Sequence record: NC_070993.1
From: Escherichia phage vB_EcoP_IMEP8
DNA: 64,000 bases
Direction: 5' to 3' (one strand)
Shown here piece after piece: positions 3,024 to 64,000 of the stretch (position 1 is its first letter; every line of letters begins with the position of its first letter). The notes beneath the pieces were generated by a model that had not been told where the DNA came from, ran no database searches, and was given only the letters and a program-made list of their open reading frames with translations. Both the position numbers and the translations under genes were made by a program.

Positions 3024-3242
3024 ATGAAAATGATGAAACAAGCTGTTTACGGTTTAGTCTGTTTAGGTGCAGGGGTTGTGGTTTCTACAGCAGTTCCTGT
3101 TAACGCAGTCCATCCATTAGCTACAGCACCAGCTCCTGTTGAGAAGCTTAGTTCTCAATGCAAGCAGCGAACTATTCAAAATAACTTGGTTGTTATTTGT
3201 CCTGATGCAGAATCTAACGCTCTGAGAAAGATACTACCTTAA
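3024..3242 (+). CDS. small secreted/membrane protein with N-terminal signal peptide (72 aa); possible lysis accessory
   Basis: SD AGGAG; hydrophobic N-terminus VYGLVCLGAGVVVSTAVPVNA followed by likely signal peptidase site; sits directly upstream of lysozyme. Confidence 0.45.
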   Translation: MKMMKQAVYGLVCLGAGVVVSTAVPVNAVHPLATAPAPVEKLSSQCKQRTIQNNLVVICPDAESNALRKILP

Positions 3243-3271
3243 TTTAAAGGGATCACAAAAGGAGGTTAGAA

Positions 3272-3763
3272 ATGGATAACGTCGCATTGCCACCTGTACA
3301 TTTAAACTTAAGCCCAGCTGGAATGGAATTCATCATGAAGCATGAGGGTATGAGAACTAAGGCTTATAAAGATTCCGCAGGTATCTGGACTATATGTGTA
3401 GGGGCTACGCGCGATATGAATGGTTATCCGGTTAGGCAAGGATTAACATATTCTATAGAGGATTGTCTAGCTCTGCTAGATAGAGACACACAAGACTCTG
3501 TTCGTGCTACTCAGAAAAACATAAAGGTTCCTTTGCTCGTTCATGAGTTCGATGCACTCACCTCTTTCAACTTCAATGTTGGTAGTGGGGCACTGAGCAC
3601 ATCTAAGTTAAGGAAGGTTATCAATGGAGAAGTCAAAGGTGATGTATACTCAGAGTTTCTTCGTTGGGATAAAATTACGGTGAAGGGAGAGAAGCAGAGG
3701 AGTCAGGGTCTTCATAACAGAAGGGTTGCAGAAGCTGATCTTTATACCGAAGGTAAATATTAA
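3272..3763 (+). CDS. lysozyme, GH24 (T4 lysozyme/lambda R-like) muramidase
   Basis: Motif HEGMRTKAYKDSAGIWTICVGAT matches E-x8-D-x5-T catalytic triad of GH24 lysozymes; SD AAAGGAGG. Confidence 0.8.
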   Translation: MDNVALPPVHLNLSPAGMEFIMKHEGMRTKAYKDSAGIWTICVGATRDMNGYPVRQGLTYSIEDCLALLDRDTQDSVRATQKNIKVPLLVHEFDALTSFNFNVGSGALSTSKLRKVINGEVKGDVYSEFLRWDKITVKGEKQRSQGLHNRRVAEADLYTEGKY

Positions 3764-57124: not shown

Positions 57125-57310
57125 TAGCTGGGCCGTTGTTATCAGAACTTGCTACCTCCTCTCATGATAAAATACCTTTCATTTATGCCTTACTCGAAGC
57201 CCTCCTTGTGGCTTTTAGTATGGATTGCTTAGCCTTAGTCTTAACTTCTTCTGTCATTCCATCAAAAACACCGAGCTTAGTTAGCTCCTTACTAGGAGGC
57301 TTATAGGAAG

Positions 57311-57354
57311 GGTTTAAAGCATTAGATAAATTATGACCATAGGCATGACCACGG
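57311..57354. repeat. 44-bp direct repeat, copy A (41-42/44 identical to 63415-63458)
   Basis: GGTTTAAAGCATTAGATAAATTATGACCATAGGCATGACCACGG. Confidence 0.85.
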
Positions 57355-57378
57355 CACAATAAAGAAGAAAGATTAAGC

Positions 57379-57744
57379 CTATGGATTTACACATTGACCG
57401 TTACCGGATGCGATTTCATTCATTGACTCATCAAACAAGGTTAGGGATGAGCGCATCAAGTGATCGACCGTGATTTGTTTACCAGTGGATTCGTTTACCA
57501 GTAGAATCATTTTACTATCCGATTGCACATGATCGAAATCATTTATATGTAAAATAATAACCTTAGGTGACTTTTTACCAGTCGAATAGTTTTCTATCAA
57601 ATAGGTGCACTGTAAACCTTCCACCGTATCAGGGGAAAATGTTGCAGCCTTAACGCTACCCATAGCCGACAATAAGACACCTAACAGAAGAATGACCAGA
57701 AAGAAGCCTACAACCATCTTAACGATGAATTTAATAATACCCAT
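57379..57744 (-). CDS. secreted/membrane-anchored protein (121 aa)
   Basis: Hydrophobic N-terminus VVGFFLVILLLGVLLSAMGSVKA. Confidence 0.45.
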   Translation of the reverse strand: MGIIKFIVKMVVGFFLVILLLGVLLSAMGSVKAATFSPDTVEGLQCTYLIENYSTGKKSPKVIILHINDFDHVQSDSKMILLVNESTGKQITVDHLMRSSLTLFDESMNEIASGNGQCVNP

Positions 57745-57943
57745 GATAATTAACCTTTAGTAATTAGTTTAAGAATATCGAAAGCGGCAACAATCAATAA
57801 ATAGTTTAAAGAAATGAAGCCAATGACAAACAAAAACAGAAACAACGCAACCGGACCTCAAAGGATGTAAGAATAAAGCATATCAGCGACGAATAACGCC
57901 ACTGTAACAACGAACAAGCAACGCCAAAAATAATCACGAATCA

Positions 57944-58210
57944 TTAGTTGCCTTTACCTTTAAATAGCGCTACCCTAAGCAATTCGACTTCTTCTAGCGA
58001 CAACAAAATCCCACGTTGCGCCAAATACTGACCAGCTAGTAACGAATCCATGATCAAAGCAACGGCGGGAAAACTCACCGTCTTAATGCTATCGCCGACA
58101 ATAAACAAGATTAAGCATTTGTCAGAATCGTCAGTATATGAGAAATCGATCTCACCATAATTGTGAGTCAGAATAGTAAAGCTGTATTCTTTAGCCATTT
58201 TTGTCACCAT
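57944..58210 (-). CDS. hypothetical protein (88 aa)
   Basis: ORF only. Confidence 0.4.
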   Translation of the reverse strand: MVTKMAKEYSFTILTHNYGEIDFSYTDDSDKCLILFIVGDSIKTVSFPAVALIMDSLLAGQYLAQRGILLSLEEVELLRVALFKGKGN

Positions 58211-58451
58211 TCAGCCCATGATTGAGCAGGTTAGCCAGCGATAATCCACCGTCAAAATAAACAGAACGAAAATCATCGCGGGTAATTTCAAGGCCAGCAA
58301 ACTTCAACCAATTTTTAGCTGACTGGAAATCCATTTTGCAAAAAGTGATAATAGGCACTGTAAGCTGACCATCCAGTGTGTTAAACATAATTTCTGAACG
58401 ACCAACAAAACAAGAAAAACCGTTTGATAATTTAATTTCTTTGATAGCCAT
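58191..58451 (-). CDS. hypothetical protein (86 aa)
   Basis: ORF only. Confidence 0.4.
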   Translation of the reverse strand: MAIKEIKLSNGFSCFVGRSEIMFNTLDGQLTVPIITFCKMDFQSAKNWLKFAGLEITRDDFRSVYFDGGLSLANLLNHGLNGDKNG

Positions 58452-58476
58452 TTTTACACTCCTGAAAATTGGTTAT

Positions 58477-58968
58477 TTACTTACTGGCCTTGATGCAGTT
58501 GGCTAGATTGACGTGAACGGTATAAACAGCATTATCAGCATTATTATAAACCGTGGTGGCAATCATCGACTGATTAACCGGGCCATAACTCACTAGATTG
58601 GTGACAGCTTTAACGTCTTTGTAACGTTGTACAGTGCCATACGTCACCATATCCGCATCGTTATCAGTACGCTTGAGAACTAGATCACTGTTAGGCTGAT
58701 TGTCTAGTGTCTTAGACTGAAAGAGAACGCCTTCATTAGTTACGTTGCTAAATTTCATTTTTAACACAATGGCACTTCCATCACTATCCGCACCATTGCA
58801 AATCATCCAACCTTTATTGATGGAACTAACAAAGATGTCAGCGGCATCAGTTGTAGGAGTAGGGCCAGCGATAGCCTTATCAGAAAGAGATGTAACCAGT
58901 GCACTAACACCGATCGCGGCGACTAGTGCATAACTTGCCAGATTAATCATCTGCATCGGTTTAGTCAT
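58477..58968 (-). CDS. secreted protein with signal peptide (163 aa)
   Basis: Signal peptide LASYALVAAIGVSALVTSLSDKAIA; SD AAGGAG. Confidence 0.5.
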   Translation of the reverse strand: MTKPMQMINLASYALVAAIGVSALVTSLSDKAIAGPTPTTDAADIFVSSINKGWMICNGADSDGSAIVLKMKFSNVTNEGVLFQSKTLDNQPNSDLVLKRTDNDADMVTYGTVQRYKDVKAVTNLVSYGPVNQSMIATTVYNNADNAVYTVHVNLANCIKASK

Positions 58969-59183
58969 TTTGCTACTCCTTAGATAGAATCAATTAACTA
59001 TTGCCACTATATAATAAAAGGAAAGAGCGACAACCATTTATTTTTAGCTTTCTTATAACTCACTGAATCTTAAAGAAATTTAATTTACTAAACCTTCTCA
59101 TTCAGGGCATAGCTTACTACTTATATAATACAAAGACGGTATTCAAGGTTACTACTCATACTTATACCTCCTGTTTTACGGGC

Positions 59184-59211
59184 ATAAAAAAGCCCCAGCC
59201 GTAGCCGGGGC
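59184..59211 (-). terminator. rho-independent terminator (minus strand)
   Basis: GCCCCGGCTACGGCTGGGGC hairpin followed by T-run on minus strand. Confidence 0.5.
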
Positions 59212-59273
59212 AAACCTGAAAGCAACACATGACCGTTGCTATAAATACACTCGCAAATGTACTTACAGCAACG

Positions 59274-59296
59274 CAAAAAGCCGCTCAAAGGCGGCT
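59274..59296 (-). terminator. rho-independent terminator (minus strand)
   Basis: AGCCGC-loop-GCGGCT hairpin followed by T-run on minus strand. Confidence 0.5.
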
Positions 59297-59522
59297 ATGC
59301 GGAAGCTTCAAATGGGGAGAGGGCACGACGTGACAGAAAGAGCGTCATAGTACTAAAAAGAGAGGCTATTGGAGAGGTTACTTATTGCCTTCTTTAATGC
59401 CTTGTTTTCTTGTTTAACCAAATCGTTTTCTTCTTGCAAGGATGCTACCAGATGAACCAGAACATCAACTACTGCATCACCTTGCCGCATCTCTCTGACT
59501 TTATTTAGAATCTCTGAATGAT

Positions 59523-59969
59523 TCATTTTACCCTCGCCTCTTTGATGGGGTCAATGTATTTCTCAACGCCCCACTTGTGTTTACTGTCTGCGTAGAAAAC
59601 ATCAGGCGCACACTGGCTAGTCTTGGGAAACGCTTGAGGGTCTTTCGTGCTACCCTTAAACTTCTGTTTACCACGGGTGCGACCATTACAGAATATTTCT
59701 AACCTCTTCTCCTCTTCTGTTTTAGCTCCCCCGCTCTTTAACAAAGAACGTTTATGATCGGCTAACAATAACGCATCAGCACGATGGACGCGATGGCCTA
59801 CACGTTTTGCCACACTAGAAGGAACATGAGATTCAGCCTCAGCCTTTGCAGCACGACGTTTTAAACTGCGCTTACTGACGTGATTGGTTGCCTTTGGCTT
59901 CTCTTTCTCCAGTTCAGAGATAGAAAAACAACGCCCGCCTTTCATGCTGATTTTAGATTTAGCCATTAT
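59523..59969 (-). CDS. basic protein (about 148 aa, internal start MAKSKIS)
   Basis: ORF; K/R-rich. Confidence 0.4.
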   Translation of the reverse strand: MMAKSKISMKGGRCFSISELEKEKPKATNHVSKRSLKRRAAKAEAESHVPSSVAKRVGHRVHRADALLLADHKRSLLKSGGAKTEEEKRLEIFCNGRTRGKQKFKGSTKDPQAFPKTSQCAPDVFYADSKHKWGVEKYIDPIKEARVK

Positions 59970-60242
59970 CTTATTCCTTTTTAGTGATAAATTATATCGG
60001 GCAAGCCCATCAAGGTGACGGGCTTGAACAAATAACTTAATCAAGTAAACTGAATGACTTCCAACTGCGTAGAAGGATTGTACCATCATCCATAGTCACG
60101 CATAACTTTAACAGCCTCTTGCTAGTGCTGCTCACCGTTGTAATTTGTCCGGTTGTACATTTACCTTTATTGCTGTAAAGATATATAACACGACGGCCTA
60201 ACAAACGAGATGGCGCTTTCTTAAACTCTGAAATATTAGTGA

Positions 60243-60467
60243 TCATAATGCTTGATACCTTTGGATATGTTCAATACGGGTAGATTGAGCAAATGACGCT
60301 TTAACCGCCATCTTTCTAACTTCTTCCTTACGTTGGTTAGTGTGTACAGTATCCCAATGCTTGTTATCACGTTGGCGCTGTAATATCTTACTACATTTGC
60401 GATGGTTTCCCGTGCTGCGATGTTTCTCACAAATAGGACACTTGCCAAAATTATTACCGAATATCAT
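60243..60467 (-). CDS. small zinc-finger-like protein (74 aa)
   Basis: CPICEKH...H...C motif; alternative frame ORF 60236-60448 overlaps. Confidence 0.35.
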   Translation of the reverse strand: MIFGNNFGKCPICEKHRSTGNHRKCSKILQRQRDNKHWDTVHTNQRKEEVRKMAVKASFAQSTRIEHIQRYQAL

Positions 60468-60727
60468 TTTCTCAATCCCATCTTTCTTAAGACACGGCCT
60501 AGCGTTGTTTCTTGCGTGATAATATAGCTGATCGCTTCACGTTCCAACGTTTCAATTTTCATTGGTGACGGATACCATTCACCAGTAAGCACGCATTTAC
60601 ACTCAACGCCATACTTTTTAGATAGGCGGTAATGTTGACCGTTGACAAGATTCCTATAAATCGTGGTATGCGTAACTAACATGATCGTCACCTTTGATTG
60701 TATTCTTTGATTAATGCACTGAATCAA
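60464..60727 (-). CDS. hypothetical protein (87 aa)
   Basis: ORF only. Confidence 0.4.
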   Translation of the reverse strand: MIQCINQRIQSKVTIMLVTHTTIYRNLVNGQHYRLSKKYGVECKCVLTGEWYPSPMKIETLEREAISYIITQETTLGRVLRKMGLRK

Positions 60728-60793
60728 TACACTGATAAAAGAAAAGGCGCTACCCGTTAAGATAGCGCCTTATGTTTATTTGAATTATCTTAC

Positions 60794-61702
60794 TTATGCT
60801 GCCTGACGTGCCGCCATAATCTCAGCCGCTTTACGCAATACTTCCTCTTCTTCTGCTTTCGCAGCTTGCTCGGTACGGGTAGCAACCGTTGAAGAGATAC
60901 GACCGCGCAGACTTTCTAACTTCTCCTGAATAGCCGAAATAGTCTTTTCCATTTCATCAGCGTATGAATCGAGTGATTCCAGCTCCTTGCTTGATGCGTT
61001 CATCAGATAATCGTCAGAGATCGCTACCGTTGATGCCGTTACTTTCTTGATGAGTGAATCAAAGGACTTTTTAACTTTCCCCACGTCTTCACTTAAGGCA
61101 ATAGTGTTGTCACTGGTAGCGCCATTGCGCTCATCAGCCAACAATTTGACTTCAATACGGATTGCATTCAAGCGTTCAACCAAAGCGTAAATATCCTGAT
61201 TAAAATCTTCCTTGTTTTTCGCCGGAATTTGCAGATGGGCAGCCACGTTGTCATTGCAACCTTTGAAGAAGTTCGGATTATCCACTTCAATTTCACGACC
61301 TAATGCAAAGTTTTCGAAAGCATTTGACCAGCGAGCGCGATTTTGTTCCATTTTGGCCTTAATTTGCGCTTCTTTCGCATCTTCTTTCGCTTTCGCTTCA
61401 CCTTCCAGATTAATCCACTTTTTACGCCCATTTGCCGCATCGGTGTTAAACTTGATCGGAGTCAGGAAAGTAATTGCAGTGGCAATTACATCCATATCGC
61501 GGAAACGTTCGGTTAACAGAAAATCAACTGCCGACTGCAATACGTCCAGCTTTTTACCGTTACTGCGGAAGTGCTGCAAGTGCCCTAACAGAAAATTAGA
61601 AACATCTTGTTTAATCGCCGCGTTATTACTGCGAATGTTGTTAGCCAGTGCGTTAAAACCAGATTCTTTTACCAGATTGAAAATTTTAGCCATGATATTC
61701 AC
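60794..61702 (-). CDS. first gene of minus-strand early block, helical protein of unknown function (302 aa)
   Basis: SD AAAGGTGAA before ATG 61702; preceded by 2.3 kb non-coding region. Confidence 0.55.
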   Translation of the reverse strand: MNIMAKIFNLVKESGFNALANNIRSNNAAIKQDVSNFLLGHLQHFRSNGKKLDVLQSAVDFLLTERFRDMDVIATAITFLTPIKFNTDAANGRKKWINLEGEAKAKEDAKEAQIKAKMEQNRARWSNAFENFALGREIEVDNPNFFKGCNDNVAAHLQIPAKNKEDFNQDIYALVERLNAIRIEVKLLADERNGATSDNTIALSEDVGKVKKSFDSLIKKVTASTVAISDDYLMNASSKELESLDSYADEMEKTISAIQEKLESLRGRISSTVATRTEQAAKAEEEEVLRKAAEIMAARQAA

Positions 61703-62514
61703 CTTTCAATTGTAAGGGCACTATTGCCCCCGCTCGCTATGAGCCTTTTAAGCCATTATTGACTTATCAATATCCACTCAATGTTAAGTAAATATTGATA
61801 AGCGGAGCGGTCTTATCAGGAGTTAACCTTGCCGCTCCCTTATCCGTGGTGTTTCAACTGGTATCTTTAATTAGTCGCTATAAACAGAGCCGACCTGATA
61901 GCGATGATTAATCACCACAATAAGGCAGTGCGTCCGATTCTATTTAATTACATTGCTGTAACCATCGGCAATACCGTCCACTTTGCTTTCGCTCCCGCCT
62001 ATCCTTTTATATCAGCTCTTTATCGCTAGTCATCGCCCACTATGGGATACTATTGCGAAAAAGTCACTAACCGCCTAGTATTCCGGCGTTTTATATCTTT
62101 CGGCAAGTTTACTACATAAACCGACTATGTACTTTCATCATAAGACGAATCTCAAGCCGTTCGCATCGTAAACGTTCACACTAAACCTTATTGTTAAATA
62201 GCAATTTGCTACCCTTTAACCATCCCCCGCCGCCCTCAATTGGGCGTTAATTCGTCGGACTTGTCTGCCCTGATTAGTTTCTTTCACTGTAGCACCGTGT
62301 TAGCGATGGCCGCCGCTACCCTTAACCGTGGGCGATTAGCTTAAACCGTTGCGTGTACTCAATGAATCCGCTTATCAGTGGCGACTTTTCCAGTTAAGGG
62401 ATTGTAAAGCTGTTTGCCCTGATGTTTTAGGGAGCCTTACGCCGTTTTATCTGGTATGCTTTCCGATGGTTATTATCTTCCAGCATATTTAACCGATATA
62501 TGGGGACGTTTAAA

Positions 62515-63275
62515 TTATTAAAGAGCGGTAAATCTGTCAGCGTGCTTTCTCACGCTACGCAACTGTAAGCCGTTGTTTCGCTTTTCACTTAAGCGGTGAT
62601 TTGCCTAGTGAGTGCTCATTATGGACCATGATGTTTTTGCTGTCAATCACTTTTTTAATCTTTTTCGTCGTTCCCGCTATTGGGAGGATATATCAACCAG
62701 CTTTATTTGATTGAAGATTAAGCGATGAGGCTTAAACTTATGATCCATATTGTTAAAGAGCGGTGCTTCTTATTGCTTCCGTTAACGTTGTTTTGTTAAC
62801 TTGTGGTTAGTATGGACTACCTTAACCACGTTTGCAACCTTTTTTATCATCTTCTTTTATTTTCTATCCCTCTTTCTCGCTTGAATCTATGCGAAAGGGC
62901 AAGATGATAAATTTTTAAAGAGCGAGCGGCTCCCATAACACCGCTTGATAATCAGTTAACCTACGATTATTCAGGGGCATGGTATCCGTCTGCCTACGTC
63001 TGACTTGCTTCACTCACTAGGGAGTTACTTGAGCGGTCATCTTGTCTTTCTAAGCTCATTATAGTTCAGGCTTTCCGGTTGTCAATACTCTTTTTAAGAA
63101 TATTTTCACTTTCTAGCCTGATTTTTAAAGAGCGGGGCAATTTCTTGCCTTGTATGTTTTACATCGTACCCGATAGAAATCAGTATACGCGAGCTTTCAG
63201 GAAGTGCAATAGGGTAAAGCAAAATATTTTAAACTTTTTCACTATAGGAAGGTAAAAGAGCGGGCGCACGTGATA
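62515..63275. repeat. iteron-like array: five dispersed copies of TTTAAAGAGCGG-type motif
   Basis: Copies near 62519, 62764, 62925, 63134, 63256 in ORF-free region. Confidence 0.6.
63068..63095 (-). promoter_or_regulatory. near-consensus sigma70-type promoter on minus strand (TTGACA-N16-TATAAT)
   Basis: Plus-strand TGTCAA at 63090-63095 and ATTATA at 63068-63073 give consensus -35 and -10 hexamers directed leftward. Confidence 0.5.
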
Positions 63276-63373
63276 CATCATAGAAAACGGCTTGTAAAGC
63301 GATATTTAGCGGCCTAAAACGCACTATAGCGAGCTAAAAGGGAGTAAGGAATACAATCACCTTAGAAAAGAAA

Positions 63374-63401
63374 AAAGCCTCATGGCGAGGCTTGTGGGGG
63401 G
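63374..63401 (-). terminator. rho-independent terminator (minus strand)
   Basis: GCCTC-ATGGC-GAGGC hairpin followed by T-run on minus strand. Confidence 0.45.
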
Positions 63402-63414
63402 GGGGGTTTAAAGC

Positions 63415-63458
63415 ATTAGGTACATTATGACCATAGGCATGACCACGGGTAAACTATT
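63415..63458. repeat. 44-bp direct repeat, copy B, immediately preceded by G11 homopolymer
   Basis: GGTTTAAAGCATTAGGTACATTATGACCATAGGCATGACCACGG. Confidence 0.85.
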
Positions 63459-64000
63459 TCTACTATATAGGACGGGGAACACACAACCGCATAACAGACC
63501 ACGGGGAAACATAGCAAGATAATGCGGTAATAATATTCCACTTAAATAATTAGTTAACTATTAATAGCATTACTCAAACATCAAAAACCGTTCGTACTAC
63601 GTACTCACGCACGCTGAAAAAGAAAAGAATAAACATCAATTATTAAAAGAAATATAATCATCCACTTAATTAATACATACATCATTATTGCACTCATAAT
63701 CATTACTATTGAAACTATTTACATTCAAACTATGGGGAGCTGCGACTGTTACATGACGGTATTATATCGCCTTAAACTAATCGTTATACAGACCTTTATA
63801 CAGTGCTAGCCTTTCTCTCACTCTTTAAAGGGGAACTAAATAAACGGGTGGGTAATGAATAGGATGGTATACACGGGGAAAGAATAACGGGGAGTAAGCA
63901 CGGGGAAACGCTGGAACGTGGAAGGAGGTGTAAAGGCATTGCCAATAACCCTTTTTTAAATGAGGACTCCCCCCTTTTAGGAATTCGTCGCGGAGCGCCT

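What the first reader, a model, noticed from the sequence alone, without database searches (positions are those of the whole stretch)
57311..63458. 44-bp near-identical direct repeats bracket a 6.1-kb early-gene segment
GGTTTAAAGCATTAG(A/G)TA(A/C)ATTATGACCATAGGCATGACCACGG occurs at 57311-57354 and 63415-63458 (2 mismatches) while the flanking sequence is unrelated. Copy B is immediately preceded by a G11 homopolymer and a minus-strand terminator hairpin. The repeats bracket a block of small secreted/basic protein genes plus the long non-coding region. They could be duplicated strong promoters, recombination sites that allow excision or exchange of the block, or boundaries of a laterally acquired module. 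The element also contains a degenerate TAATGTA core on the minus strand.
Basis: seen in the sequence. Interest (0 to 1): 0.6.

Follow-up and report, generated by a model that had tools for sequence, protein, structure and literature searches.

The report
Leftover repeat from a relocated phage operon
The two 45-bp repeats are the conserved tail of a small early operon of a phiEco32-like coliphage: one copy moved with the operon to a new site 6 kb away and the other stayed behind when the original operon was deleted, so this is an ordinary rearrangement scar, not a pair of promoters or an active recombination system.

Summary
The repeat is real: 45 nt at 57310-57354 and 63404-63448, 2 mismatches, with no other copy in the window.

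The window is the right 64 kb of a Kuravirus (phiEco32/SU10-like) genome. All 84 phage records that match this element ('X') hold it once. Where the locus was read (12 canonical genomes), X lies between the last gene of the right-most early operon ('Q') and that operon's intrinsic terminator.

In the window the whole Q operon has been relocated. Its own promoter, X and three quarters of the terminator now sit in a 21-nt cargo slot between the block-P terminator and the cell-wall hydrolase gene, flanked by an 8-nt AGGAGGTA repeat. At the original site Q was deleted between CCGT microhomologies, leaving X and an intact but orphan terminator.

EcoN5, Bas92 and Bas94 share the identical insertion but have different remnants at the old site. 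An independent SRA contig (L020) has both copies with the same junction as the window.

Promoter and site-specific recombination readings are not supported. A possible RNA hairpin in X is compatible with the sequences but unproven. Interest is low to moderate: a new example of a known kind of phage mosaicism.

The parts
57310..57354 (-). Copy A of element X: the tail of the relocated Q operon, 24 nt after the stop codon of the 121-aa gene
   Evidence: Identical sequence at the same place in EcoN5, Bas92, Bas94 and L020.
57330..57360 (-). Candidate RNA hairpin 1 (AUUGUGCCGUGG / loop UCAUGC / CUAUGGuCAUAAU), specific to the minus-strand transcript because it needs G.U pairs; complete at copy A
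   Evidence: 96% of cells paired across 12 sequences, but no compensatory changes.
57287..57309 (-). Truncated copy of the early terminator carried along with copy A (5' arm, loop CTAGT, first bases of the 3' arm); homology with the Paul/SGF2-type terminator stops at ...AAGG
57161..57286 (-). 126-nt filler of unknown origin between the truncated terminator and the insertion boundary. It is overlapped by a 58-aa TTG ORF (57183-57359) with no ribosome-binding site and no family match.
   Evidence: Found only in EcoN5, Bas92 and Bas94 among 50,697 phage records. ORF.
57153..57160 (-). AGGAGGTA, downstream flank of the inserted Q segment (the single copy at the empty site in canonical genomes)
57379..58968 (-). 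Q-operon genes in their new position: 163 aa (58477-58968), 86 aa (58191-58451), 88 aa (57944-58210), 121 aa (57379-57744)
   Evidence: They align to the right-most operon of Paul, SU10 and phiEco32.
59006..59033 (-). Q operon's own sigma70-like promoter (TTGTCG-16-TATAGT), positional homolog of the SU10 promoter upstream of CDS125; it moved with the operon
59165..59172 (-). AGGAGGTA, upstream flank of the inserted Q segment
59192..59211 (-). Intrinsic terminator at the end of block P; the cargo slot begins just downstream of it
59212..61762 (-). Block P: early genes in their usual order, including the 302-aa gene at 60794-61702
61763..63364 (-). 1.6-kb non-coding spacer with consensus sigma70 early promoters (63085-63058 at 12/12; 62646-62618 at 11/12)
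63365..63393 (-). Intact early terminator (AAGCCUC-GCCAU-GAGGCUU plus U-run), now orphaned because the operon it used to end has gone
   Evidence: Same element is published as the SU10 terminator at 74441. Alignments.
63396..63406 (+). G11 (minus-strand C11) run replacing the usual CCTTCCTRT tract; specific to this genome
   Evidence: L020 reads AAAACCTTCCTGAAAG at this place.
63404..63448 (-). Copy B of X: the remnant left at the original locus after Q was deleted; it lacks the 5' lower-stem arm of hairpin 1
63441..63454 (-). Deletion junction GTTTAC|CCGTGGTC, a hybrid of a right-terminal iteron and the start of X (CCGT microhomology)
   Evidence: The identical junction is present in L020.
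63472..63909 (-). Array of right-terminal CCCCGT / GTTTCCCCGTGGTC iterons that supplied the microhomology for the deletion

Best explanation
X is the conserved 3' untranslated tail of the right-most early operon (Q) of Kuraviruses. In the usual genome it lies between the stop codon of the last Q gene (phiEco32 gp125, 121 aa) and the operon's intrinsic terminator.

In an ancestor of this phage a roughly 2.0-kb segment was copied by illegitimate recombination. The segment held the Q promoter, the Q genes, X and the first three quarters of the terminator. It landed in a 21-nt cargo slot between the block-P terminator and the hydrolase gene, and it is flanked by the 8-nt Shine-Dalgarno-like sequence AGGAGGTA. 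The source could have been the same genome or a co-infecting relative.

The now redundant Q at the original right-end site was later deleted. The deletion ran between a terminal CCCGT iteron and the CCGT at the start of X, leaving X and the intact terminator as an orphan. The two 45-bp repeats are therefore paralogous remnants: one copy is attached to the relocated operon and one is a fossil at the old locus. They bracket Q + P + spacer only as a by-product.

Shown: the two arrangements, the single-copy state in relatives, the exact junctions, the independent remnants in sister genomes, and the independent assembly. Inferred: the order of events (copy first, then delete), the direction (canonical arrangement ancestral), and the recombination mechanism.
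For: Genome identity. The window is a Kuravirus, and window position 64000 lies within about 17 nt of the genome's right end.

Block swap. Against Paul, SU10, 4E8 and phiEco32 the order hydrolase | P | X | Q | end has become hydrolase | X + Q | P | X | end. The breakpoints are 57160/57287, 59124/59160 and 63448/63472.

Copy number. X occurs once per record in all 84 matching phage records (84 places in 84 records). In every canonical genome examined it lies directly before the published SU10 terminator.

Copy A side. Its homology with the canonical locus continues into the terminator and stops in the 3' arm.

Insertion site. The empty site reads ...AAAACAGGAGGTA|GCAAGTTCTG... in SU10, Bas93, LAMP and L021. 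The filled site has AGGAGGTA on both sides. Unrelated cargos occupy the same slot in phiEco32, L018 and L019.

Shared insertion, different remnants. The identical insertion junctions occur in EcoN5, Bas92 and Bas94. At the old site Bas92 keeps only the 3' two thirds of X, joined to iteron 1. EcoN5 has no X there. Bas94 keeps a LAMP-type two-gene Q'.

Junction B. It reads GTTTAC|CCGTGGTC, and CCGTGGTC occurs in a terminal iteron.

Independent assembly. L020, a different strain about 90-93% identical, has both copies and the same B junction.

No homogenisation. A and B differ by 2 nt, and each differs from the SU10 copy by 3 nt. Copy A carries a Paul/SGF2-type terminator loop (CTAGT) while copy B carries the NJ01/172-1 type (GCCAT).
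Against: The order of events and the donor are inferred, not observed.

A predicted second repeat at the upstream end of the relocated segment was not found (local alignment score 18 against a shuffle mean of 16).

The origins of the 126-nt filler after copy A and of the first ~35 nt of the insert are unknown.

X's invariant 25-nt core suggests it has a function of its own, and that function was not identified. Retention of copy B could therefore be more than a passive leftover.
Confidence: 0.85

Rival explanations
1. X is a promoter, either host sigma70-type or phage gp36-type (TAATGTATA, start site 6-8 nt downstream), duplicated so that it drives leftward transcription at two places.
For: Copy B contains TAATGTA on the coding (minus) strand. 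This is 7 of 9 against the gp36 consensus, as good as the weakest published SU10 late promoter. SU10's own X reads TAATGTAT. A CATAAT -10-like hexamer is present. The B junction happens to create a TTTACC-18-CATAAT match at 9 of 12.
Against: In every canonical genome examined X is at the 3' end of an operon, and its motif lies about 30 nt upstream of an intrinsic terminator. The key G varies: G in SU10 and window B; T in window A, Paul, 4E8 and MN05; C in phiEco32, 172-1 and NJ01. phiEco32, the phage in which gp36 promoters were mapped, has TAATCTA. Copy A reads TAATTTA. TAATGTA occurs 13 times in the window against 10.6 expected by chance. The sigma70 scan found no excess of promoter-like sites (20 against 18.3). 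X is single-copy in 84 records.
Confidence: 0.06
2. The repeats are recognition sites of an active site-specific or transposition-like system that excises, inverts or exchanges the bracketed 6.1-kb block.
For: A block has clearly moved in this lineage. The moved Q segment is flanked by an 8-nt direct repeat that resembles a target-site duplication.
Against: No recombinase or transposase family was found in the Q-block genes or the 302-aa gene, the bracket ORFs that were scanned. The 45-bp repeats flank Q + P + spacer, not the segment that moved. Sister genomes show three other states at the old site: two different deletion end points (Bas92, EcoN5) and a retained LAMP-type Q' (Bas94), as expected of sporadic illegitimate recombination. 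AGGAGGTA is a ribosome-binding sequence that also ends unrelated cargos in the same slot. No database genome lacks the bracket. Such a deletion would remove all the early promoters in the spacer.
Confidence: 0.04
3. X is an independently functional RNA or DNA element (an RNA-stabilising or processing hairpin in the 3' UTR, or a protein-binding site related to the terminal iterons), and selection keeps both copies.
For: A 25-nt core (CCGTrGTCATGCCTATGGTCATAAT) is invariant or nearly so in more than 20 genomes. It is retained even where the adjacent 121-aa gene is deleted, as in MN05 and PE006. The hairpin is strand-specific and 96% of cells pair. The G/A and U/C changes keep or improve pairing. 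The SU10 segment folds with z = -2.9. X starts with the iteron word CCGTGGTC.
Against: No pair changes on both sides, and the shuffle controls are not exceeded. SGF2 breaks two lower-stem pairs. Copy B has lost the 5' arm of the lower stem, and the window segments fold no better than shuffles (z = -0.2 and -0.4). There is no Rfam match. EcoN5 has lost the old-site copy altogether. This rival concerns X's native role and is compatible with the rearrangement explanation for why there are two copies.
Confidence: 0.25
4. The two-copy arrangement is an assembly artefact.
For: The homopolymer G11 next to copy B is an error-prone context. The exact genome is not in the phage collection.
Against: Insertion junctions 1 and 2 are identical in EcoN5, Bas92 and Bas94 (three further deposited genomes). 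Junction 3 with both copies is present in the independent SRA-derived contig L020, a different strain.
Confidence: 0.02

Closest known systems
Early-operon terminator region of phiEco32/SU10 (terminator downstream of SU10 CDS121, listed at 74441 in S2 Table of PMC4281155)
   Same: Copy B plus the hairpin at 63375-63393 is the ortholog of this published terminator region. In the usual genomes X is the sequence immediately 5' of it.
   Different: In the window the operon that this terminator used to end is no longer upstream of it. A second, truncated copy travels with the relocated operon. X itself has not been described as a feature in the papers I could read.
PeSL regulatory cassettes of T4-type phages (Arbiol et al. 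2010, PMC2839356; Comeau et al. 2014, PMC4122927)
   Same: Short conserved regulatory sequences (promoter/terminator) at gene-block boundaries serve as the places where blocks of small non-essential early genes are inserted, deleted and shuffled.
   Different: PeSLs are multi-copy composite promoter-plus-stem-loop motifs that recombine by homology and form mini-circles. X is single-copy per genome in 84 records. The junctions here rest on 4-8 nt microhomologies (CCGT, AGGAGGTA), and no circles were shown.
Moron/cargo insertion slots and mosaicism by illegitimate recombination at gene boundaries in tailed phages (my own knowledge of the Hendrix/Hatfull mosaicism model)
   Same: A short slot between a terminator and the next gene's ribosome-binding site holds unrelated cargos in different relatives (adhesin, HTH protein, 136-aa protein, or the Q operon). 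Each cargo brings its own promoter or terminator pieces.
   Different: Here the cargo is not foreign DNA. It is the phage's own right-most early operon, followed by loss of the original copy, so the net result is a transposition within the genome.
gp36-dependent middle/late promoters of phiEco32-like phages (consensus tAATGTATAtA; PMC4281155, PMC12276001)
   Same: Copy B and SU10's X contain TAATGTA(T) on the transcribed strand.
   Different: The core is not conserved (TAATTTA, TAATCTA in relatives and in copy A). The element lies at an operon's 3' end just before a terminator, not upstream of middle or late genes.

Membership tests
gp36-dependent promoter (phiEco32 type) | TAATGTATA-like element (AATGTA centred at -11.5) conserved at the site | tested here: not met
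   Copy B reads TAATGTAcc and copy A TAATTTAtc. Relatives read TAATGTAT (SU10), TAATCTAT (phiEco32, 172-1, NJ01) and TAATTTAT (Paul, 4E8). The 7-mer is not enriched in the window (13 against 10.6 expected).
gp36-dependent promoter (phiEco32 type) | Located upstream of middle or late genes that it drives | tested here: not met
   In the canonical genomes examined and at copy B the intrinsic terminator begins about 10-13 nt after X ends, about 30-35 nt after the motif.
gp36-dependent promoter (phiEco32 type) | Transcript 5' end 6-8 nt downstream, dependent on gp36 holoenzyme | not testable with these tools
   Needs primer extension, dRNA-seq or in vitro transcription.
sigma70 early promoter | -35 and -10 hexamers with 16-18 nt spacing, conserved at the site | tested here: not met
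   Only copy B scores (TTTACC-18-CATAAT, 9 of 12), and its -35 is created by the deletion junction. Copy A and the canonical loci have TTGTGC or worse. Promoter-like sites in the region equal the chance level (20 against 18.3).
Intrinsic (rho-independent) terminator | GC-rich hairpin followed by a U-run on the transcribed strand | tested here: met
   Next to copy B: AAGCCTCGCCATGAGGCTT followed by TTTTTCTTTTC, orthologous to the published SU10 terminator. Next to copy A the hairpin is truncated in its 3' arm and has no U-run. X itself is not the terminator.
PeSL-like mobile regulatory cassette | Many copies per genome of a composite promoter plus stem-loop motif in hyperplastic regions | tested here: not met
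   X: 84 places in 84 records and two copies in the window.
PeSL-like mobile regulatory cassette | Indels and replacements between close relatives are bounded by the motif | tested here: inconclusive
   Q-operon gain and loss events end in or next to X and the terminator. However, the junctions are microhomologies, not homologous exchange between motif copies.
Site-specific recombination or transposable cassette | A recombinase or transposase encoded in or beside the element | tested here: not met
   No such family among the Q-block proteins, the 302-aa protein or the hydrolase, the ORFs that were scanned in PHROGs and Pfam. The small block-P genes were not scanned.
Site-specific recombination or transposable cassette | The same end points whenever the element moves or is lost | tested here: not met
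   The insertion junctions are identical (one event), but the losses at the old site have three different end points in window/L020, Bas92 and EcoN5.
Direct terminal repeat (DTR) of Kuravirus genomes | A repeat of about 190-206 bp at the two physical ends of the genome | tested here: not met
   Copy B lies 552 nt inside the right end. The DTR of 4E8 maps to roughly the last 200 nt of the window. Copy A is 6.6 kb inside.

The most novel reading that the evidence does not exclude
X and the right-terminal GTTTCCCCGTGGTC iterons are binding sites for one phage protein (packaging, replication or end protection). In the usual genome they bracket the first-entering Q operon and make it a naturally excisable, relocatable cassette. 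Alternatively, copy B (TAATGTA + about 25 nt + terminator) is a small gene for a ~47-nt gp36-dependent RNA. Either would make the duplication functional rather than a scar.
Probability: 0.06. Interest if true: 0.55.

Novelty: new member of a known kind. Interest (0 to 1): 0.27.

Why it matters
It explains a conspicuous repeat without invoking new biology, and it stops it being annotated as a promoter pair or an attachment site.

It also documents, with base-level junctions, how a lytic phage rewires its earliest transcription unit. A stand-alone, terminator-ended operon at the genome end that presumably enters the cell first becomes an internal operon. That operon has lost its terminator and now probably reads on into the hydrolase gene.

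The series of related genomes gives a small natural example of gene relocation by copy-then-delete, with repeated independent loss of the redundant copy: canonical, Bas94 with both sites occupied, Bas92 with a partial remnant, window/L020 with a full remnant, and EcoN5 with none.

For phage engineering, it identifies a tolerated 21-nt cargo slot and shows that the position of the Q operon is flexible.

Tried and rejected
- **Second repeat pair.** I looked for one at the upstream end of the relocated block, as expected if the copied segment exceeded the deleted one at both ends. It was not significant.
- **58-aa ORF over copy A** (annotated as a 65-aa CDS in EcoN5, Bas92 and Bas94). It has a TTG start with no ribosome-binding site and no PHROG or Pfam match. 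The frame is not kept in relatives (stop in 172-1, frameshifting indel in NJ01). I treat it as non-coding.
- **Known RNA families.** The only hit was a sub-threshold MicX match over the block-P terminator (24 bits against 75).
- **Covariation test of the X hairpin.** Compatible with the sequences but uninformative, with no double-sided changes.
- **Origin of the 126-nt filler.** It matches only the three swapped relatives.
- **Exact-protein look-up of the 121-aa protein.** Not on record.
- **IMG/VR scan for junction 3.** No hit.
- **IMG/VR scan for the 121-aa gene.** Only 4 loci, mostly duplicates of GenBank phages.
- **Base composition inside versus outside the bracket.** No difference.
- **Literature on Bas92/Bas94 or this rearrangement.** Nothing found.

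Full report
**1. Observation**

The repeat exists. The repeat finder reports a 45-nt pair at 57310-57354 and 63404-63448 with 96% identity (2 mismatches) and 6094 nt spacing. Copy A's coordinates are correct. Copy B's are about 10 nt too high.

The G11 run lies at 63396-63406 and overlaps the first bases of copy B. The minus-strand terminator lies at 63393-63375, followed by a T-run. TAATGTA is present only in copy B; copy A reads TAATTTA.

**2. Genome context**

The region matches 98 Kuravirus records (phiEco32, SU10, Paul, 172-1 and others) at roughly 80-92% identity. The last bases of the window align to the last bases of SU10, and the annotated terminal repeat of 4E8 maps to about the last 200 nt. 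The window therefore ends at the genome's right end.

Genes in this region run leftward on the minus strand and are the early genes. According to the SU10 paper:

- One sigma70 promoter lies upstream of CDS125.
- A terminator lies downstream of CDS121.
- Three strong sigma70 promoters lie in the long spacer between CDS120 and CDS121.
- gp36-dependent middle and late promoters share tAATGTATAtA.

(PMC4281155; PMC12276001.)

**3. Key result: two blocks are swapped**

The window was aligned to Paul, SU10, 4E8 and phiEco32.

- Canonical order: hydrolase | block P (small genes, ~300-aa gene, spacer with promoters, terminator) | block Q (121-aa gene ... 163/290-aa gene, own promoter) | right end.
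- Window order: hydrolase | Q | P | right end.

The breakpoints are 57160/57287, 59124/59160 and 63448/63472. The canonical sequence at the P|Q boundary aligns to both window copies of the repeat. I call the repeated element X.

**4. X in other genomes**

- X is single-copy everywhere else. A search with copy B found 84 records and 84 places.
- In each canonical genome I read, X begins 24 nt after the stop codon of the 121-aa gene. Those genomes were Paul, SU10, 4E8, phiEco32, NJ01, KBNP1711, 172-1, SGF2 and eight metagenome or SRA contigs.
- X ends about 10 nt before the hairpin listed as the SU10 terminator at 74441.
- MN05 and PE006 have lost most of the 121-aa gene but keep X.

X is therefore the tail of the Q operon, not a dispersed promoter.

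**5. Junction anatomy**

*Copy A side.* Homology with the canonical locus continues past X, through CCTTCCTATAAGCCTC and the loop CTAGT, to ...AAGG. It breaks inside the 3' arm of a Paul/SGF2-type terminator. A 126-nt stretch follows (57161-57286) that occurs only in EcoN5, Bas92 and Bas94 among 50,697 phage records.

*Insertion site.* In SU10, Bas93, LAMP and several contigs the empty site reads terminator-ATGCCCGTAAAACAGGAGGTA|GCAAGTTCTG...hydrolase. In the window the ~2.0-kb Q segment sits at the bar, with AGGAGGTA on both sides at 59165-59172 and 57153-57160.

The same 21-nt slot carries unrelated cargo in other genomes, each ending in ...AGGAGGTA|GCAAG:

| Genome | Cargo | Length |
|---|---|---|
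| phiEco32 | adhesin gp118-119 | 789 nt |
| L018 | HTH gene | 428 nt |
| L019 | 136-aa gene | 505 nt |

*What moved.* The Q segment brought its own sigma70-like promoter (59033-59006), the positional homolog of the SU10 promoter upstream of CDS125.

*Copy B side.* The right end carries iterated CCCCGT / GTTTCCCCGTGGTC motifs. Five of the nine CCCCGT hits in the window lie within 63472-63905, all on the minus strand. CCGTGGTC has 4 hits against 0.64 expected, three of them in X(A), X(B) and an iteron. The junction reads GTTTAC|CCGTGGTCATGCC. This is a deletion between a terminal iteron (canonical CTACCCGTAG) and the GCCGTGG at the start of X.

**6. Sister genomes**

EcoN5, Bas92 and Bas94 share the identical insertion junctions, which points to one event. 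They differ at the old site:

| Genome | State at the original right-end site |
|---|---|
| Bas92 | iteron 1 joined to the 3' two thirds of X (...TGCGGT\|CATAATCTATC...) |
| EcoN5 | no X |
| Bas94 | a LAMP-type two-gene Q' |
| Bas93, LAMP | the two-gene Q'; no insertion at the new site |

An independent SRA-derived contig, L020, is 90-93% identical to the window. It has the swapped order and both X copies, with exactly the window's B junction. It has no poly-C run and lacks the block-P terminator and the Q promoter.

The two-copy state is therefore real and inherited. The redundant right-end operon was lost more than once.

**7. No sign of homogenisation or foreign origin**

- A and B differ by 2 nt, and each differs from SU10's X by 3 nt.
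- Their terminator loops belong to different allele types: CTAGT at copy A and GCCAT at copy B.
- GC content is 41.0% inside the bracket, against 40.7% in the 7 kb upstream and 42.0% overall.

**8. Does X do something itself?**

- The 25-nt core CCGTrGTCATGCCTATGGTCATAAT is almost invariant.
- In the minus-strand RNA, together with the upstream AUUGUG, it can form a 12-bp hairpin with three G.U pairs, just before the terminator hairpin. The fold is therefore strand-specific.
- The SU10 segment folds better than shuffles (z = -2.9) and phiEco32 weakly so (z = -1.7). The window segments do not (z = -0.2 and -0.4).
- Across 12 distinct sequences 96% of cells pair. One-sided changes (G/A opposite U, U to C opposite G) keep pairing. 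No pair changes on both sides, the shuffle control is not exceeded, and SGF2 breaks two pairs.
- Copy B has lost the 5' arm of the lower stem.
- There is no Rfam match.
- The ORF annotated over copy A in relatives has no ribosome-binding site, no family match and no conserved frame.

X's native role stays open. An RNA hairpin in the 3' UTR is my best guess.

**9. Mechanism and consequences**

Shown: the two arrangements, the junction sequences, the copy numbers and the variant series.

Inferred: a copy of promoter-Q-X-partial terminator entered the cargo slot by illegitimate recombination at short Shine-Dalgarno-like and GAGG/AAGG homologies. The copy came either from the same genome or from a co-infecting relative. 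The original Q was then removed by microhomology-mediated deletion between an iteron and X.

The canonical order is taken as ancestral for four reasons:

- It is the large majority.
- Its terminator is whole, while copy A's is truncated.
- The slot is empty or holds other cargo elsewhere.
- The old-site remnants differ between sister genomes.

Consequences (inferred):

- Q is no longer the first, terminator-bounded unit next to the genome end.
- Q now lies behind block P and probably reads on into the hydrolase gene.
- The terminator at 63365-63393 is an orphan.
- Recombination between the two 45-bp copies would delete 6.1 kb, including every early promoter in the spacer. No such genome was seen.

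**10. Comparison with known systems**

The closest functional analogue is PeSL-mediated shuffling in T4-type phages (PMC2839356, PMC4122927). X fails the defining multi-copy criterion for that family. The promoter, att-site/transposon and terminal-repeat memberships were each tested and not met; details are in the membership table. The overall pattern fits the general model of phage mosaicism by illegitimate recombination at gene boundaries and moron slots (my own knowledge).

**11. Verdict**

I found no description of this rearrangement in the searchable literature, so it is a new example of a known kind. Interest is low to moderate.

Noticed in passing
window 63441-63909 (minus strand): Array of iterated motifs next to the right genome end. 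GTTTCCCCGTGGTC lies at 63497-63510, a hybrid copy at 63441-63454, and GTTTCCCCGTGCTT at 63896-63909. Five of the window's nine CCCCGT hits fall in 63472-63905, all on the minus strand. The array is conserved in relatives (alignment A2). Function unknown; possibly packaging, replication or end recognition.
   Followed up: partly
window 57153-57172 / 59165-59191; L009, L018, L019: The 21-nt gap between the block-P terminator and the hydrolase leader is a cargo slot. phiEco32 carries adhesin gp118-119 there, L018 an HTH-domain gene and L019 a 136-aa gene. Every cargo ends with ...AGGAGGTA|GCAAGTTCTG.
   Followed up: partly
window 61763-63364: The 1.6-kb non-coding spacer holds repeated TTAAAGAGCG-containing modules (62511, 62746, 62908, 63117). 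It also holds two near-consensus sigma70 promoters on the minus strand (63085-63058 at 12/12; 62646-62618 at 11/12), matching the three spacer promoters reported for SU10.
   Followed up: partly
window 63396-63406: The G11 (C11 on the coding strand) run is specific to this genome. L020 and canonical relatives have a C/T-rich tract (AAAACCTTCCTGAAAG or TCCTTCCTGT) here. It is either a slippage-prone expansion or a homopolymer sequencing artefact.
   Followed up: partly
L020 6389 (equivalent to window 59255-58985): The independent swapped-order contig lacks about 270 nt that contain the block-P terminator and the Q promoter. This fuses Q directly to the P operon, a further streamlining step.
   Followed up: no
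L015 (MN05) and L016 (PE006), about 3050-3290: The 121-aa gene is internally deleted or replaced in these canonical genomes, yet X and the terminator are retained unchanged.
   Followed up: no
window 57379-57744, 58191-58451; GenBank/PHROG labels: A 121-aa protein with an N-terminal hydrophobic segment is labelled 'terminase' (phrog_13168). An 86-aa protein is labelled 'polymerase', and a 98-aa protein 'DNA helicase' in several records. These look like propagated misannotations of small early proteins.
   Followed up: no
window 58477-58968: The first Q gene exists in two forms among relatives: 163 aa (as here) and 290 aa. The 163-aa form matches residues 130-290 of the long family (phrog_36409).
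   Followed up: no
window 59184-59313 (minus strand): Sub-threshold Rfam hit to MicX (24 bits against a gathering score of 75) over the block-P terminator region; most likely chance.
   Followed up: no
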